DNA of 64,000 nt, taken from Microbotryum violaceum. Taxonomy: Eukaryota. Where the stretch lies: positions 620,001-684,000 of the forward strand of contig CDLV01000011.1 of the NCBI GenBank assembly GCA_001244265.2. The letters run 5' to 3'. A program made the position numbers and the translations under genes. Under the pieces are notes generated by a model, which was given only the letters and a program-made list of their open reading frames with translations, was not told the DNA's origin and did not search any database. Below, in pieces: positions 46,594 to 53,412 of this stretch; positions within the stretch are counted from its first letter, which is position 1; every line of letters begins with the position of its first letter.

Positions 46594-46874
46594 CTTGTTC
46601 AGACTCGATTGGCAAGAGGGTGGCAAAGTCAGAGATGGGGGTCGCACCAGGCGAGCAGCGAACAAGCGAGGACGAGTAGGGACGAGTCACTAGGCGCAGA
46701 GATGGAGAGGGGCGGAAAGAGGGGAGAGCGCAAAGACAGGCGCGATTCGATGAAACCGATGACGGAAGATGATCGTGACGACGCTTGGACCTCCTCGTAT
46801 TCACTGTCAAGTCCGAGTCGCGAGTTTAGTTCCATTTCCCGTCCCCCCATCGCAGACTGAGTTTGACACGCGCC

Positions 46875-48294
46875 ATGCCACTGCCGCTGATCAGATTCCT
46901 CACTCGCGGCCGGTCCACTACAGCCGGTGGCACCCCTCAAGACGTGCCGACCCCCACTTGTACGACCACCACCGTTCCAGCAGCCGGACCATTATTCGCC
47001 GGTCTCTGCGCCTTCTTCTCCAACTCTTGTTCAATCTCAACTCGTGCAGCATGGGTTCATCATGGTGGTACCTTGGCTCGAGCCGAACAAGTACCGAAGG
47101 GGATCCCGATCCATCTCTTCTTTGTCGTTGAGAGCAGACCATCGAATTGCGAGAGACGGTGAGTCTTATCCACGAAAGAGCCTCGGAGCAACATAGATAC
47201 TCTCTTCCCGCGTCGGAACCGTGCAAACAGGTCTTGAGAAGAATAAAGCCTGACAGGCAACCATTTCGTCGTACATCTCATCGCACAGCCTCGAAGCCCT
47301 CGGCCTCGAGCTCCGCGACCAACGCTACGTCTGGGCTTGCATCGATCACAAGCGCTTGCTCTCGCTCGAACAGTATCTCATACCACCTCGTCAATTGAAG
47401 AAGAACGATCCATCCACCTCGTCCCAATTGGACGTGATCCAGTGGAGGGAGATGGCAGCGCCCGATCCGGAAGAAGAAAGTGTGCAGTCCGAGGAGAACG
47501 ATCACCCCTCTCTTGGCGCGCCAAGTCCGACTTCGTCGGGCCCACACGACGATCCGACTTCAATCAAGACCCCAATTCGCTCCTTCACGTTTCCGGAGCC
47601 CGGATCATCACACTCCAGAGAGACTCCGTCCCCTCCGAAGCATTATCGACCCTCCGACCTTGACTTCAGGTTCTCTCCTGCCTCACCTTTGGTGACATTC
47701 GCTGCCGCCCAACTGATCCGATCTTCGAGTGCGACCGCGCAGTCCGACCATTCTAACTCAGCGCGCCATGAGTCTCCTGAGTATTCCTCAAGTCTATCCA
47801 GCAATTCCTCCGAGTCCGTGGAGAACTCGCTTTTCCTCAACCGAGAGAGAGGAGGTGGAAGTACTCCCCTCGCGCCTTTCTCGTCCGCAGAGGCCCGTAC
47901 GCATACGCGATTCGAGTCCGACTCCCCGGACTCAGAAACCCCCTTCCACGACTCCCAATTTGGAGGCGTACGACTTGAACAAGTCACGCTGGACGACGTA
48001 CCACGAAGTACTACGCCGCCCCTCACCCCTCCCTCATCCCTATTCTACCTCACCTCAATTTCACCCGCAAGGCCTCCGAGGATTTCCTTTGTCACCTTCC
48101 TCCACCATTTCAACTCAGTCCTACCACCCCAAGCCGAGCTAAGAAAGGGTTTGAAGGAGTTGAAGCCGGGGTACGATGGGTTCGTTGCTATTCGGAAGAA
48201 GCGCGGGGGTGAAGATACTGGGAGGGGGGATGGGTTGCAATTGCTGGAGGGAAGCGCAGTCAATCATGGGGCTAAGAAGGTTAAGGTGGAATGA
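46875..48294 (+). CDS. BRCT-like domain protein resembling meiotic telomere bouquet protein TERB2 (429 aa; intron 47159-47288)
   Basis: A phase-2 GTGAGT...CACAG intron joins LFAGLCAFFSNSCSISTRAAWVHHGGTL...HLFFV to LEALGLELRDQRYVWACIDHKRLLSLEQYLIPP; Ser/Pro-rich linker; C-terminal LKELKPGYDGFVAI. Confidence 0.7.
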
Positions 48295-48543
48295 GGGGGG
48301 TTTGAGCTTTATGGGTTCGAGAGAGTGGGATAGAGCGAGTTGGGGGGATTATCACCGGTTTCTTCCTAGTTTGATCAAATCGCTCCTGTGTTAGCTTCTT
48401 TAGAGTCTGCACTCCCGCGTTTCAATTCGTCCGACTCGGAGGCGTGGAACAAGTGAATATATCAGCTCAGCCTCCTGAGCTCTAAAATAGCTACCAATAT
48501 AAGAATCAAAATATACCAGCTCTCAATCTAAGATCCAACGCCG

Positions 48544-49909
48544 CTAGTCTACCTTCTTGCCCTGAACCGTTTTCTTCCCTTTGCCCCCCTTCGCATCCCC
48601 TTTCTGCACCCCCAAGCGCTTGTACACAGAAAGAATCATCAATCTGAACCAAGTCCAATTCAAGACTGTAAGCCGTGTAAGTCGAGAAGACAATCTATGT
48701 CAGTGACGTGCTCGAAGAGGGGGTTCAAGCTGAGCAGGCTTCGACAGCACTACAACTCACTGTTCAAAGCCAAATTCGCCGCTCTAAAGCCCCATCGTAG
48801 TTTAGGGTCGATGTTGCGTGCGTCGAGGAGGTTCCATAGGCGGTAGGTCATCAGACCACCGTAGACGATGCGGGCGCCAAAGAAACTACAAGGAGGCAGC
48901 TCGGTGAAGATTAAGTTTGAATCTTCGGGGTCGGACAGGTGAGCCAAAACGTGAAAATTGCTTACGCGGAAAGGAGTGCGAATCCATTAGCTAGTTGAAG
49001 CGTAGAACCGGTCATGTTGAGCTTATCGAGCCACCAGTGGGGGTGAAGAAAGCTGCGAGAGGTGAGATATAGTCTCAATTCAGAACTTTCGGCGGATCGG
49101 TAGGAAGAGAGATGGCAGTAGTCACGTCGTAGCACTCACATCGTGGACAGTTCCCACTGCAAGTCCGCGCTCAATTCAGTATATGACAGAAATGAATGGT
49201 TATCCCCTCTGATTCGGGCCTCGACTCACAATGAGGAACGTAGGACCGATGCCATTCAGAAAAGGGGTAAAAGCCTACGCACGATAGGAGATAGGTCAGC
49301 TACCATTCGCCCGACACAAAAGCCTCCTCCTACCTTGAAGAAGATGAAGCAACATGACGTGGCATGAACAACAAAAGGGATCCCATGCGACTTGACGAAC
49401 GCGAGCGAGACGAGGAGGTCGTACAGAAAGTAGCCACCAGAGAAGGCGAAGACGGCGCCTTCGACGGGGGCGTAACCAAAGATGGGGTCGCGCACCAGTT
49501 GAGGCGAAGGATTCCAGATGAGGTAGAGCGCTATAGGGGCCGAGATGAGAGCATGGACCCAGCCCGTCTGTAGGGTTGTCAAAGAGGCCGCTTCGGTGTC
49601 AGCTCTCCGAAAATTCCAGGGTTTGCAGAAGTGGGGCTCAACTATCACCGAGGCTAGGCTGCGCTTAGCCGGGCGACTTACAAAGTGCAGATCCCAATCG
49701 TTCCTCGTCTCCTCATCAAGCGATTTAAAGCTCTTGGGAAACAGCCTGGGCGAACAGTAGCGGGATGCGGCCTGCGCGGCGAAGAAGAAGCTACAGCCAA
49801 ATAGCGCGAGCGCGAGGTTGGGTCCTTCGGCAAGGCGGGGCACGTTGAAACGGTTGCAGTAGTATTTCGCCGCTGACGAGGTCGTCGTGAATCGGGAGAG
49901 GAAATCCAT
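48544..49909 (-). CDS. TLC domain membrane protein, paralogue 2
   Basis: DWDLHFTGWVHALISAP, FAFSGGYFLYD, FVVHA, WELST.FLHPHWWLDK, FFGARIVYG, LNWTWFRLM. Confidence 0.88.
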
Positions 49910-50509
49910 CTTTGTGACGGTGGGCGGATGGCGACGTGTTGCGTGAATGAACGTGTGTATGCAGCTGGCAGAGGGAGAGTGTGGGGGTTGACGACAACCA
50001 CGAGGACGCCAGGAAGATGCAAGGTCCTTGCTCGCGGATACGGCCAACTAACACAACCCGAAGGCGACTCAAGCTCGCTACGAGTGTGGAGTACAAGCCC
50101 AGAGGTCGTGCTGGAGGGTGTTGGAGCCCCGAGACGTGAGGGAACGGTGTGAGATCACCAGGAGCGTTCGGCGACCGCCCCGATCGAAGTCGCTCGATCG
50201 GTCGTTTCAGCGATCGACGATCGAGGCCAACGTGGGGTGCCTGAGACTTTGCTGCAAAATGCAGTTGTAACACCCGAGTGACGGTGAAGGTCAATACAGC
50301 CTGCTTGGATCAATTCATACGATTCAAAAAAACACCTACTCATTCTGCTCCGTCGCCATGCGGAATTGGCCTACCTTGGTAAATGCGTTGAAATTTCCGG
50401 CGGTCCTGGCGTTTGGCGCTAGTCAGGTCACGTGCTGCTCCTCATTTACGTTCGCACGACCACCTCCGCAGACCGAGGTGACGACGAGACGACCCCTCAA
50501 GCCCTCGGA

Positions 50510-53412
50510 ATGGATAACGCGCTCAGTCGACGGCCCTTCAAGGTCACCTTGGCTCCCACGCCGTCCTCTTCCGTCACGGCGCCCGCACGACAACTCAAGC
50601 GTATCCACGTCGCTGCAGAGGTTCTCAAGGCGAGGAAGATCTGCGCCGGCGATGCGCTCGTGATTCGTTCACGCCCCGCTGCGGCTCCTTCGACGTTGGA
50701 GGATGGCATCAGTGCGCTCAGTATCAACAAGGTCAGTGCGATACAGTCTCCCAAGACCTGCGCCCCAGCTGATCGTCCGCGACGCTGTCCGCCGCCAGAC
50801 CGAGCTACCGACCTCGCATGCTCCGGCGTCGACGGAGCCGCCCAAATTTGCTGTCGGTGTAGCATGGCCCTCGTTCACTCTATCCGCATCAGGTACGGAT
50901 CGAAAGTGCCTCGATCAGTTCATGAGTGCGAGCTGACGTGCTCCTTCTCGAATCGCCTCAGCCTCCGACTCGGCGGTCGCGGTCTCGTCGCTACTACTCG
51001 CCAACTCGGGCCTTACACTGGGAGAAGACTCGATGCTCAACACCCTCGGCGACTCGGGCCTGTCCGTCTTTGAAGCTGAGACCGTGACCCTCATCTACGA
51101 CTCCAAGGGCAAAGCCGCAAAGGATAGCTTCTTTGAAGCCTACGCTAAAGAAGTCCTCGGTGAGCAAGGATATCTCTACATCGATTTTACAGCGGAACCC
51201 CACTGATCATCCTCCCTTGGGTCCTCCCTGCAGTCGACATCAAATACGTTGCCCTTCATCACTTTGTCGAGTTGACCTTCAACGGCGTACTGCGACGATT
51301 GCTGGTTTCTTCGGCACGACCGGCCCCAACCTCGCCTCCTTTCAAAGTAGCTCCGAACCAAGTATTCCTCGTTTCTCGATCCACATCGGCTACCTTCAAA
51401 CCTCCAATCGCACCCTTACCCAAGAGAAGGGCCGCAGTAACGGCTTCAGCTGGCGCATCAACTTCGACGCCGATCGCTAGGACAGGGGACATGCCTGGAT
51501 ACGAAGCGATCGGTGGGATGCAGGCTCAGATTGAACAGATTCGCGAAATGGTCGAGTGGCCTCTGACTCGGCCTGAGGTGTTTAATCATTTTGGTACGCC
51601 ATAGTTCAAGTACTAACAGATACTGTGTTATCGTGACTACTGACGTCGTATTTTCCTGAACCCAGGTCTCCGGCCACCGAGAGGTATCTTGCTCTACGGT
51701 CCCCCAGGAACGGGCAAAACCCTACTCGCCTACTCAATCGCCCAATCGACACGCTCGACCCTCCTAAACATCAACGGGCCCTCCCTCTCCTCCGCATATC
51801 ACGGCGAGACCGAAGCTCGACTGAGGGACGTGTTTGCCGAAGCCAAGCGCAAGTCCCCCGCCGTGATCGTCATCGATGAAGTGGACGCTTTGGCCCCTAA
51901 TCGAGAGGAAGGGGGCGAGGTTGAAAGAAGGGTCGTGGCCACGCTTTTGACGCTTATGGACGGATTGGAGGAGAAGGACACGGTTGTTGACTCTGAATCA
52001 GGCGAGGAAACGAATGAGGATAAATCGAATGAGGAACGACCGAGGGTCGTCGTGATCGCCGCTACGAACCGACCGAACGCGATCGATCCTGCACTTCGAA
52101 GACCGGGGAGGTTCGATAAAGAGATCGAGATTGGTGTTCCCGATGCTGCGTCGCGGTTATCGATCTTGCGTGTGCTCCTTCGAACGACGCCACACGCTCT
52201 GGACGAGGCGACCCTCGCTTCCGCCGCTGCGCGAACCCATGGCTTCGTCGGCGCAGACCTGTCCTCTTTGGTCCACACCGCTGGTCTCAACGCGATCAAG
52301 CGTTCTTTCAATTCGATCGAAACTTCACCTACCCCAGCCAACCTCTCGGACCAAAAACTCCTCGCCTCGGATCTCGAAGCCGCCCTCCTCTCAACGCGTC
52401 CCTCAGCAATGCGTGAAGTATTCCTCGAAACGCCCAAAGTGAAATGGTCCGACATCGGTGGCCAAGCCCACGTCAAAGCCCGCCTAAGGGAATGCGTGGA
52501 ATGGCCTCTCTTACATCCCGAGACGTTCAAGAGATTGGGTGTTCGACCACCCCGAGGTGTTCTGTTGTATGGTCCTCCAGGGTGCAGTAAGACGTTGATC
52601 GCGAAGGCTTTGGCGAATGAAGGAGGGTTGAATTTCATTGCCGTCAAGGGGCCGGAGGTGTTCAACAAGTACATTGGGGAGTCGGAAAAGGGGATTAGGG
52701 AAATCTTCCGCAAGGCTAGGGCCGCCGCACCTTCGATCGTGTTCCTCGTACGTCAATCGCGTGGTTCAGCTGCTCGTCCTCAAAGGAGAAGGAGAAGTTA
52801 GCTAACCTCGATTTGCTTCTGTAAAGGATGAGATCGATGCGCTCGCACCCGCGCGTGGATCGGATGACTCGTCCGGTCCGACGGGGGATCGAGTCCTCAT
52901 GTCATTGTTGACCGAGATGGACGGAATCGAAGAGTTGAACGGCGTCATCGTTCTTGCCGCGACGAACCGACCCGACGTGATCGTAAGTCCTTTCAGGGCT
53001 GCGCATCCTCCCTCCCAGGCGGAAGGTCGCAACTTACGCTCTCTCTCTCACGCTCATCCGATAGGATCCCGCTCTCATGCGCCCAGGTCGACTAGACCGC
53101 ATCCTCTACGTCGCTCCACCCGACCTCCCATCCCGCATCGAAATCTTCCAACTCGCCTTCAATCGCATGTCCATATCCTCCGACGTCAACATCCAAGAAC
53201 TCGCTTCCATGACCGATGGGTGTTCAGGCGCTGAGATCGCGGGGATCTGTCAAGACGCGGCTTTGAATGCGATGAATGAGGATATTGAAATTGAAGCTGT
53301 GGGGAGGAGGCATTTGGTTGAGGCGGCCAAGAGTATACGGAGAAGGATCACGAGCGAGGTCGTTCAGGGGTACGAGGAATGGAGGGATCGGTCCGGGATC
53401 AGGAGTGCTTAG
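50510..53412 (+). CDS. AFG2: Double AAA+ ATPase of the Afg2/Drg1/SPATA5 family
   Basis: Two AAA modules: GPPGTGKT...IDEVD...[20 protein letters not shown], and [22 protein letters not shown]...GPPGCSKT (Afg2-type D2 Walker A)...RPGRLDR. Confidence 0.93.

What the first reader, a model, noticed from the sequence alone, without database searches (positions are those of the whole stretch)
46875..48294. Candidate fungal homologue of the animal meiotic telomere-bouquet protein TERB2
Seen: the spliced protein has a BRCT-like N-terminal domain, LFAGLCAFFSNSCSISTRAAWVHHGGTL...HLFFV...YVWACIDHKRLLSLEQYLIPP, then a disordered linker and a short C-terminal motif LRKGLKELKPGYDGFVAI. Knowledge, recalled from memory and needing verification: human TERB2 begins MFQGQRGWFCGSVSQDLRQFWVAEGGTI...VALGHFILPP (TERB1-binding domain) and ends with the MAJIN-binding segment FLGELHDFIPGTSGYLAY. 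Both ends match in order and spacing. The TERB1-TERB2-MAJIN complex is generally described as metazoan. Inference: basidiomycetes may retain a TERB2/MAJIN-like telomere-to-nuclear-envelope tether, pushing its origin back to early opisthokonts.
Basis: partly seen in the sequence, partly recalled or inferred. Interest (0 to 1): 0.85.

Follow-up and report, generated by a model that had tools for sequence, protein, structure and literature searches.

The report
Orphan fungal BRCT adaptor, weakly TERB2-like
This is a real, spliced and transcribed anther-smut fungus gene for an uncharacterised protein with an ordinary BRCT docking domain at one end and a small conserved motif at the other; its layout recalls the animal meiotic telomere protein TERB2, but the tests run here do not show that it is a TERB2 relative.

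Summary
It is identical to MVLG_04666 of Microbotryum lychnidis-dioicae, and a public contig carries the spliced form.

The protein belongs to a small family: 16 hits among 1.84 billion representatives, and all 13 named members are Microbotryomycetes. The family shares three parts:
- an N-terminal BRCT fold (pLDDT above 90);
- a long Ser/Pro-rich linker;
- a C-terminal helix and beta-hairpin, G-[LVF]-x4-H-G-x2-G-[FW], followed by a basic tail.

Evidence for TERB2 is weak. There is a sub-threshold Pfam hit (13.6 bits; cut-off 27), a best structural match in the ESM Atlas (TM 0.77 against 0.69-0.73 for ordinary BRCTs), and Glu385/Leu386/Pro388/Phe393 spaced like human D191/F192/P194/Y199.

Evidence against is stronger:
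- Foldseek puts XRCC1, PARP4 and Rev1 BRCTs first. TERB2 ranks 32 for this protein and is not among the rows listed (to rank 50) for a second member.
- Six PDB sequence searches never find TERB2.
- None of 8 C-terminal fragments hits the TERB2 profile.
- The Pro is confined to two Microbotryum species.

MAJIN and TERB1 partners could not be searched. My reading is an orphan two-ended BRCT adaptor, with TERB2 orthology at about 0.12.

The parts
46875..47158 (+). Exon 1 (Met1 to the first two bases of codon 95)
   Evidence: The translation matches the first 94 residues of P0003. The X6 contig covers it from 46836.
47159..47288 (+). Intron of 130 bases with GT..AG ends
   Evidence: sequence. table 5: one contig of run X6 skips 130 bases with GT..AG ends.
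47289..48294 (+). Exon 2 (third base of codon 95 to the TGA stop)
   Evidence: 100% identity to P0003.
46986..47394 (+). N-terminal BRCT-fold domain, residues about 38-130, interrupted by the intron
   Evidence: AlphaFold2 pLDDT is 89-97 over residues 41-130, with beta-alpha-beta-beta-alpha-beta-alpha order. Foldseek finds 27 PDB hits at E<=1e-3; all of the top-ranked rows shown for this model are BRCT domains. G64, G65, F41 and R95 are invariant in 17 family members.
47395..48069 (+). Ser/Pro-rich disordered linker, residues about 131-355
   Evidence: pLDDT is mostly below 50. Over residues 136-355 the composition is Ser 21% and Pro 13%, and the protein has 15 [ST]P sites. Alignment across genera is poor.
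48076..48129 (+). Conserved hydrophobic C-terminal helix region, residues 358-375 (P-R-I..F..HF.SVLPP)
   Evidence: Helix 362-369 in the model. It is aligned across most family members. It is covered by the HMM match to P0011, HMM positions 5-52.
48139..48195 (+). Conserved C-terminal beta-hairpin motif, residues 379-397 (L-R-K-G-L-K-E-L-K-P-G-Y-D-G-F-V-A-I-R)
   Evidence: Strands 383-389 and 392-397, with block-mean pLDDT 78-79 over residues 381-400. The same hairpin appears in the P0012 model, strands 214-219 and 222-227. The strict motif is in 9 of 18 family proteins and the core motif in 11 of 18.
48193..48291 (+). Basic, NLS-like C-terminal tail, residues 397-429 (RKKR ... KKVKVE)
   Evidence: There are 3-6 Lys/Arg in the up-to-14 residues after the motif in all 11 motif-bearing proteins. 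The NLS or DNA-binding role is inference.

Best explanation
The gene encodes an orphan nuclear adaptor protein of a family so far seen only in Microbotryomycetes. It has two separated interaction modules joined by a long flexible Ser/Pro-rich linker. The first is a canonical single BRCT domain at the extreme N-terminus. The second is a C-terminal hydrophobic helix plus a beta-hairpin (G-[LVF]-x4-H-G-x2-G-[FW]) followed directly by a basic tail. The most likely working is a two-ended tether or recruiter. The BRCT domain docks on one nuclear partner, either a phosphoprotein or another BRCT-type domain. The C-terminal helix and hairpin dock on a second partner, and the basic tail supplies nuclear import or non-specific DNA contact. 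Shown: the gene, its splicing and transcription, the fold, and the family-wide conservation of both ends. Inferred: nuclear location, partner binding and the tether role. The resemblance to animal TERB2 is best explained at the level of the BRCT superfamily plus a similar modular layout, not as orthology.
For: Gene and transcript. Family: 16 proteins at E<=1e-3 among 1.84e9 representatives, with the N-domain matched at or near the protein start (start residue 3-34) in all 14 hits beyond Microbotryum. The ten looked up are all Microbotryomycetes, and names an eleventh. BRCT fold: pLDDT above 90 in two independent models. Foldseek top hits are XRCC1 BRCT2 (E 2.2e-5), PARP4, Rev1 (TMt 0.75-0.77), TopBP1 BRCT6 and Crb2. 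The family profile against PDB sequences gives RAP1 BRCT 0.015, Lig4 0.039 and Rev1 0.065. C-terminal module: it aligns across genera. An HMM from the three Microbotryum sequences scores P0011 at 18.8 bits, P0010 at 11.4 and P0012 at 9.3, always at the C-terminus, against 5.4 for the best of 294 shuffled or reversed controls. The core motif lies in the last 45 residues of 11 of 18 proteins against 1.5% of shuffles, and a basic tail follows in all 11. The hairpin is predicted in both models.
Against: No partner, localisation or phenotype is known, so the tether role rests on domain logic. Pfam BRCT models do not reach their cut-offs (best is BRCT_2 at E 0.018, 4 of 17 members), so BRCT membership rests on structure prediction. 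The one Pfam hit of the window protein is TERB2, and the ESM Atlas puts a TERB2 cluster first by structure, so a more specific relationship is not excluded. Three of 17 aligned members (P0016-P0018, 141-177 aa) lack the C-terminal module; they may be truncated gene models, which was not checked.
Confidence: 0.6

Rival explanations
1. It is a true, highly diverged orthologue of animal TERB2. The N-terminal domain would bind a TERB1-like telomere protein. The C-terminal motif would wrap a MAJIN-like inner-nuclear-membrane protein, with the basic tail contacting DNA, tethering meiotic telomeres to the nuclear envelope.
For: TERB2 (PF15101) is the only Pfam family hit by the window protein, in register with the start of the profile (residues 43-70 against profile positions 3-30; E 0.065). 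A TERB2 cluster is the best structural match in the ESM Atlas (TM 0.77 over 89 residues; other rows 0.69-0.73). Human TERB2 6j07_A is a Foldseek hit (E 1.3e-3, TMt 0.61) with the highest identity listed, 22%, tied with Pol lambda. The layout parallels human TERB2: N-domain 1-107, a poorly conserved linker, a MAJIN-binding segment 168-207 and a basic patch 214-220 needed for DNA binding (Dunce 2018, passages). Glu385-Leu386-x-Pro388-x4-Phe393 has the spacing of D191-F192-x-P194-x4-Y199, the salt-bridge and wedge residues of the MAJIN interface. Tyr124-Leu-Ile-Pro-Pro128 sits where da Cruz 2020 place the [F/Y]xLxP motif at the end of the TERB2 N-domain.
Against: Every sequence signal is below threshold (13.6 bits against 27). 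Across the family TERB2 hits 4 of 17 members, the same as BRCT_2. Six PDB sequence searches, with one protein, the exon-1 product and four profiles, never return a TERB2 chain at E<=10, although 6J07 and 6GNY are solved entries. None of 8 C-terminal fragments hits PF15101. Foldseek ranks TERB2 32nd for this protein, and TERB2 is not among the rows listed (to rank 50) for P0012. Pro388 occurs only in M. lychnidis-dioicae and M. saponariae; it is Ala in M. intermedium and His elsewhere. The Tyr-x-x-Pro ending varies even within Microbotryum, and the aromatic residue is generic to BRCT ends (Rev1, RAP1 and Lig4 alignments). The fungal domain is a canonical BRCT, whereas TERB2's is described as a three-stranded sheet with six helices (Wang 2019, passages). 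The family was found in one fungal class only, and reviews place TERB1/2-MAJIN in metazoans.
Confidence: 0.12
2. It is a DNA-damage or replication scaffold derived from a Rev1-, XRCC1- or PARP-type BRCT domain. The BRCT would read a phospho- or poly(ADP-ribose) mark or pair with another BRCT. The C-terminal motif would recruit a repair enzyme.
For: The closest solved folds are XRCC1 BRCT2, PARP4, Rev1 and TopBP1 BRCT6. Rev1 gives the highest TM (0.75-0.77) and 20% identity for P0012. Lig4 and Rev1 BRCTs are among the best PDB sequence hits. That most BRCT proteins act in the DNA-damage response is established knowledge, recalled.
Against: This is a more specific version of the best explanation with no extra evidence. 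No repair-enzyme domain or known repair motif was found (Pfam). The phosphate-pocket residues were not established; Ser49 is Ala in 2 of 17 members.
Confidence: 0.2
3. It is a reduced Rap1-like telomere protein that kept the N-terminal BRCT domain and lost the Myb and RCT domains.
For: Human RAP1 (8rd4_D, 7oz0_A) is the best PDB sequence hit of the family profile (E 0.015 and 0.12). Rap1 clusters appear among the Atlas structural rows (TM 0.69-0.73).
Against: The RAP1 alignment is carried by the last BRCT helix plus low-complexity sequence. There is no Myb or Rap1_C Pfam hit in any of 17 members. The C-terminal module is about 40 residues of helix plus hairpin, not a helical RCT domain.
Confidence: 0.04

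Closest known systems
Animal TERB2 (Pfam PF15101; PDB 6J07 with TERB1, 6GNX/6GNY/6J08 with MAJIN)
   Same: Both have a BRCT-type fold of about 100 residues at the extreme N-terminus, a poorly conserved linker, a short hydrophobic C-terminal partner-binding segment and a basic C-terminal patch. The spacing acidic-hydrophobic-x-Pro-x4-aromatic is shared in the Microbotryum protein. There is a sub-threshold Pfam hit and a best Atlas structural match.
   Different: It is below the Pfam cut-off, and there is no reciprocal hit in six PDB sequence searches. The C-terminal module is not recognised by the TERB2 profile (0 of 8). The fungal domain is a canonical BRCT rather than the three-strand, six-helix form described for TERB2. 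The linker is about 220 residues against about 60. Pro is not conserved in the family. The fungal motif is predicted as a self-contained hairpin. Partners are unknown, and the family is seen in one fungal class only.
Single BRCT domains of Rev1, PARP4, XRCC1 (BRCT2) and TopBP1 (BRCT6)
   Same: These are the best structural matches (Foldseek E 2e-5 to 3e-4; TMt up to 0.77). They share the Gly-Gly turn and the Trp-containing last helix.
   Different: None of the catalytic or other domains of those proteins is present. Identity is 12-20%. Pfam BRCT models stay below their cut-offs.
RAP1/TERF2IP N-terminal BRCT domain
   Same: It is the best PDB hit of the family sequence profile (E 0.015), it is an N-terminal single BRCT, and it is a telomere protein.
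   Different: The fungal family has no Myb or RCT domain, and the match is confined to the last helix plus low-complexity sequence.
Fungal bouquet adaptors Bqt1/Bqt2 (fission yeast) and Ndj1 (budding yeast)
   Same: They are the known fungal proteins that link meiotic telomeres to the nuclear envelope (review passages). This is the role the novel reading would give to this family.
   Different: The reviews state that they show little sequence similarity to TERB1/2-MAJIN.

Membership tests
TERB2 (PF15101) | Score at or above the Pfam gathering cut-off (27 bits) | tested here: not met
   Scores are 13.6 bits (P0003), 13.2 (P0004) and 10.8 (P0005), covering only profile positions 3-30/31 of 207. 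4 of 17 family members hit at E<=10, none at the cut-off.
TERB2 (PF15101) | N-terminal domain specifically closest to the TERB2 N-domain (the TERB1-binding fold) | tested here: inconclusive
   A TERB2 cluster is first by structure in the ESM Atlas (TM 0.77). Foldseek against the PDB ranks 6j07_A 32nd for P0003 (E 1.3e-3, TMt 0.61, 22% identity), and 6j07_A is not among the rows listed (to rank 50) for P0012. No TERB2 chain appears in six PDB sequence searches.
TERB2 (PF15101) | C-terminal MAJIN-binding segment (human 168-207, with D191 salt bridge and F192/P194/Y199 wedge) | tested here: inconclusive
   The same spacing is seen in Microbotryum (E385, L386, P388, F393). However, Pro is present in only 2 of 11 motif-bearing proteins, 0 of 8 C-terminal fragments hit PF15101, the C-terminal profile finds nothing in the PDB, and the Atlas gives no usable hit.
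TERB2 (PF15101) | Basic patch at the C-terminal end | tested here: met
   There are 3-6 Lys/Arg in the up-to-14 residues after the motif in 11 of 11 motif-bearing proteins. Human TERB2 has five basic residues in 214-220. This is a low-specificity feature.
TERB2 (PF15101) | [F/Y]xLxP motif at the end of the N-domain, conserved in all taxa (da Cruz 2020) | tested here: not met
   The window protein has Y-L-I-P-P, but M. saponariae has Y-L-V-P-S and M. intermedium has Y-R-I-P-H. Other genera keep only the aromatic residue.
TERB2 (PF15101) | MAJIN-like and TERB1-like partners in the same genome | not testable with these tools
TERB2 (PF15101) | Meiosis-specific expression and telomere or nuclear-envelope localisation | not testable with these tools
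   A spliced contig shows transcription in run X6, but the condition of that run is unknown.
BRCT domain superfamily | Beta-alpha-beta-beta-alpha-beta-alpha fold matching solved BRCT domains | tested here: met
   Two models have pLDDT above 90 over the domain. There are 27 and 20 PDB hits at E<=1e-3, and all of the top-ranked rows shown for both models are BRCT domains.
BRCT domain superfamily | Conserved Gly-Gly turn after helix 1 and Trp in the last helix | tested here: met
   G64 and G65 are invariant in 17 of 17 members. Trp110 or an aromatic residue is present in most, and it aligns to the same helix of Rev1, Lig4 and RAP1.
BRCT domain superfamily | Pfam BRCT models at the gathering cut-off | tested here: not met
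   The best is BRCT_2 at E 0.018, in 4 of 17 members, below the cut-off of 27.3 bits.
BRCT domain superfamily | Phosphopeptide-binding pocket (Ser/Thr after strand 1, Lys in helix 2) | not tested
   Only the alignment was inspected. Ser49 is Ala in 2 of 17 members and Arg95 is invariant. No structural superposition was possible.

The most novel reading that the evidence does not exclude
The Microbotryomycete family is a surviving fungal branch of TERB2. Its BRCT-type N-domain would hold a telomere-bound partner, and its C-terminal helix-hairpin-basic module would wrap a MAJIN-like inner-nuclear-membrane protein. The animal meiotic telomere-to-envelope tether would then predate the split of fungi and animals, and TERB2 itself would be a derived BRCT protein.
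Probability: 0.12. Interest if true: 0.85.

Novelty: new member of a known kind. Interest (0 to 1): 0.35.

Why it matters
Reviews describe telomere-to-nuclear-envelope adaptors as functionally conserved but unrelated in sequence between yeasts and animals, with TERB1/2-MAJIN confined to metazoans. No adaptor for basidiomycetes turned up in the papers seen here, and none was specifically searched for. A fungal TERB2 would move the origin of the animal complex back to early opisthokonts and give a tractable yeast-like system (Rhodotorula, Sporobolomyces) in which to study it. The evidence here does not reach that. What it delivers is:
- a defined, expressed orphan BRCT family with a sharply conserved C-terminal hairpin, which is a clean handle for partner fishing;
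- the side observation that the TERB2 N-domain itself groups with BRCT folds.

Tried and rejected
- **Own genome.** No genome is held for this window, so MAJIN (PF15077) and TERB1 could not be sought.
- **RNA runs.** No RNA holder is listed for the stretch. Only contigs could be laid. X1 gave low-depth pieces that say nothing about splicing.
- **Binding test.** Complex prediction of the N-domain (36-135) against the C-terminal region (350-405) of the same protein gave no verdict (score 0.00; controls not run). It is not evidence either way.
- **Last word-indexed protein search.** The search with a 16-sequence alignment led by the 237-aa member was meant to reach animal-sized TERB2 proteins. 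Low-complexity words swamped it: 8000 candidates were scored and only 3 family members returned. It therefore says nothing about wider distribution.
- **ESM Atlas on the C-terminal 54 residues.** No usable feature hit, and the structural rows at TM 0.35-0.51 are meaningless for such a short piece.
- **Getting a TERB2 sequence for direct alignment.** Six PDB sequence searches at E<=10 never listed a TERB2 chain.
- **Earlier notes of this scan.** Nothing on this genome and nothing on TERB2.
- **Literature.** No paper holds both 'TERB2' and 'BRCT', and none holds 'MVLG_04666'. The nine papers with TERB2 + MAJIN + fungi were seen as a listing only, and none is about a fungal homologue by title or abstract start. 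One search was badly posed: it did not require TERB2 and returned nothing relevant. Supplementary alignments of da Cruz 2020 and Dunce 2018, which would show TERB2 conservation column by column, were not available.
- **Considered and rejected.** Spurious ORF: rejected by the spliced contig and by conservation at 83% and 45% identity in two other Microbotryum species.
Full report
**The gene**

The sequence at 46875-48294 (+) reads as two exons, 46875-47158 and 47289-48294, separated by a 130-base GT..AG intron. The joined product is 429 aa. It is identical to P0003, annotated as hypothetical protein MVLG_04666 of Microbotryum lychnidis-dioicae p1A1 Lamole.

One contig of public run X6 covers 46836-47157 and 47288-48500 without a single other difference and skips exactly the intron. 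The X6 word share of 0.85 equals what remains of the query after removing the intron and the uncovered 5' flank. The run is therefore most simply a transcript assembly, though its kind is not on record. The gene is real, spliced as proposed, and transcribed in at least that sample.

**The family**

Orthologues exist in M. saponariae (83% identity) and M. intermedium (45%). A profile of these three, scored against 1.84 billion representative proteins, gave 16 proteins at E<=1e-3 and 5 at E<=1e-10. In all 14 hits beyond Microbotryum the N-terminal domain is matched at or near the protein start (start residue 3-34).

The ten hits looked up are all hypothetical proteins of Microbotryomycetes: Rhodotorula, Sporobolomyces, Rhodosporidiobolus, Phenoliferia, Meredithblackwellia and an unnamed Microbotryomycetes species. 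An eleventh is named.

The 17-sequence alignment shows a common plan:
- a domain of about 100 residues at the very N-terminus, with invariant F41, G64, G65 and R95;
- a poorly alignable linker of roughly 60-250 residues;
- a hydrophobic segment (P-x-I-S...L...L-P-x-V-L-P);
- a variable spacer;
- a sharp motif, R-x-G-[LVF]-x4-H-G-x2-G-[FW]-x-V-x-R, followed by Lys/Arg-rich residues.

**Is the C-terminal conservation more than chance?**

An HMM was built only from residues 350-429 of the three Microbotryum proteins. It scores Phenoliferia P0011 at 18.8 bits, and Rhodosporidiobolus P0010 and P0012 at 11.4 and 9.3 bits, each at the extreme C-terminus. The best of 294 shuffled or reversed family sequences scores 5.4 bits; P0014 (5.4) and P0013 (4.4) do not exceed that.

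A regex for the core, [HP][GSR]x2-3G[FWVY], matches within the last 45 residues of 11 of 18 family proteins, against 276 of 18000 shuffles. The stricter form matches 9 of 18. In all 11, the up-to-14 residues after the motif hold 3-6 Lys/Arg.

The misses are:
- M. intermedium, which has Ala in place of Pro/His;
- P0006 and P0019, which have degenerate motifs;
- P0009, whose longer cluster mate P0020 has the motif;
- three short proteins of 141-177 aa that lack a C-terminal region altogether.

**The structure**

AlphaFold2 with the family alignment gives pLDDT 89-97 for residues 41-130, with the order strand-helix-strand-strand-helix-strand-helix. The linker has low confidence. There is a helix at 362-369 and a hairpin at 383-389/392-397, with block-mean pLDDT 78-79 over residues 381-400. 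A second member, P0012 of Rhodosporidiobolus lusitaniae, gives the same domain (pLDDT 90-98) and the same terminal hairpin at 214-219/222-227.

| Foldseek vs PDB | Window protein | P0012 |
|---|---|---|
| Hits at E<=1e-3 | 27 | 20 |
| Leading hits | XRCC1 BRCT2 (2.2e-5), PARP4, Crb2, BRCA1, PTIP, TopBP1 | PARP4, Rev1 (TMt 0.77, 20% identity), TopBP1 BRCT6 |
| Rev1 | TMt 0.75 | TMt 0.77 |
| Human TERB2 6j07_A | rank 32, E 1.3e-3, TMt 0.61, 22% identity | not among the rows listed (to rank 50) |

The N-terminal domain is therefore a canonical single BRCT domain.

**Testing the TERB2 reading: signals in favour**

- Pfam's only hit for the window protein is TERB2 (PF15101). It aligns the start of the domain to the start of the profile (residues 43-70 against positions 3-30), but at 13.6 bits against a cut-off of 27 (E 0.065).
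- In the ESM Atlas, the structure search with residues 36-135 puts a 97-member TERB2 cluster first (TM 0.77, 89 residues aligned), ahead of ordinary BRCT clusters at 0.69-0.73. The feature search ranks it seventh at 0.83, a level the tool calls a lead only.
- The layout matches what Dunce et al. 2018 report for human TERB2 (passages read): an N-domain of 1-107, a poorly conserved linker, a MAJIN-binding segment at 168-207 and a basic patch at 214-220 needed for DNA binding.
- The residues they single out at the MAJIN interface are a salt bridge from D191 and a wedge of F192, P194 and Y199. These have the same spacing as Glu385, Leu386, Pro388 and Phe393 here.

**Testing the TERB2 reading: signals against**

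- Across the family, TERB2 is hit by 4 of 17 members and BRCT_2 also by 4 of 17, all below cut-off.
- Six searches of PDB sequences never listed a TERB2 chain at E<=10. They used the whole protein, the exon-1 product, the 3- and 17-sequence profiles, a profile of the N-terminal half and a profile of the C-terminal module. The 17-sequence profile returned RAP1 (0.015), Lig4 (0.039), Rev1 (0.065), Mdb1, Brc1, MCPH1 and Pol lambda BRCTs.
- Eight C-terminal fragments from eight species gave 0 hits to PF15101.
- The Pro that makes the Microbotryum motif look like the human one is present only in M. lychnidis-dioicae and M. saponariae. It is Ala in M. intermedium and His in the other genera, so it is unlikely to be the ancestral state of the family.
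- The [F/Y]xLxP ending that da Cruz et al. 2020 find in all TERB2s (passages) is not kept even within Microbotryum. Its aromatic residue is shared with Rev1, RAP1 and Lig4.
- Wang et al. 2019 describe the TERB2 N-domain as a three-stranded sheet with six helices (passages). That is more derived than the textbook BRCT predicted here.
- The family was found in one fungal class only, with no bridging sequences.
Its second clause, no conservation of the C-terminal motif, is not met.

**What remains open**

The partner test is open: no genome is held and the large protein searches were exhausted. The last of them was swamped by low-complexity words. No TERB2 sequence could be obtained, so no direct alignment or profile-profile comparison was possible. 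The condition under which the transcript was seen is unknown.

**Reading**

The simplest account of all results has two parts. First, TERB2's N-domain is itself a BRCT-type fold: it appears among BRCT hits. That explains the weak Pfam and Atlas signals at superfamily level. Second, this fungal family is an independent, lineage-restricted BRCT adaptor with its own C-terminal docking module.

I take it to work as a two-ended nuclear tether or recruiter (confidence 0.6; the fold and conservation are shown, the mechanism is inferred). True TERB2 orthology keeps about 0.12. A DNA-damage scaffold is a more specific form of the main reading (0.2). A reduced Rap1 is unlikely (0.04).

**Literature**

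| Paper | What I saw | What it says |
|---|---|---|
| da Cruz 2020, PMC7227075 | passages | places TERB1/2-MAJIN in metazoans |
| 2026 review, PMC13522668 | passages | yeast adaptors show little sequence similarity to TERB1/2-MAJIN |

No paper in the library holds both 'TERB2' and 'BRCT', and none holds the locus tag. I found no report of a fungal TERB2 in the listing, for which I saw titles and abstract starts only.

Noticed in passing
not in the window; PDB 6j07_A and the ESM Atlas TERB2 cluster: The human TERB2 N-terminal domain groups with BRCT folds. It is hit by this BRCT model in Foldseek (E 1.3e-3, probability 1.00, 100 of 107 residues aligned). A 97-member TERB2 cluster tops an otherwise all-BRCT structural list. 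Wang 2019 describe the fold without naming BRCT, and no paper in the library holds both words. TERB2 may be a derived BRCT protein.
   Followed up: partly
window 49259-50047 (-): An ORF downstream on the opposite strand carries a TLC domain (TRAM/LAG1/CLN8, E 1.4e-7, above the cut-off), so it is probably a ceramide-synthase-like membrane protein.
   Followed up: no
window 51644-52798 (+): An ORF with strong AAA ATPase matches, two stretches (E 1.1e-64) plus AAA_lid_3. It is probably part of a two-ring AAA+ protein of the Cdc48/NSF type.
   Followed up: no
window 46836-48500 and beyond: The spliced X6 contig is 2665 letters long and runs on for about 1130 letters past 48500, far beyond the stop at 48294. 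Either the 3' UTR is very long or the assembly merged this transcript with that of the convergent downstream gene.
   Followed up: no
P0009 and P0020 (Sporobolomyces salmonicolor): Two gene models in one 90% cluster differ in length (365 against 495 aa). Only the longer one carries the C-terminal hairpin motif, so the shorter model probably has a wrong 3' end. The three short family members P0016-P0018 (141-177 aa) may be truncated models too.
   Followed up: partly
window 47395-48069 (+), linker residues 131-355: The protein carries 15 [ST]P sites, most of them in the linker. One P-S-P-P-K stretch is conserved in all three Microbotryum species (P208, S209, P211, K212). This looks like a target for proline-directed kinases.
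   Followed up: no
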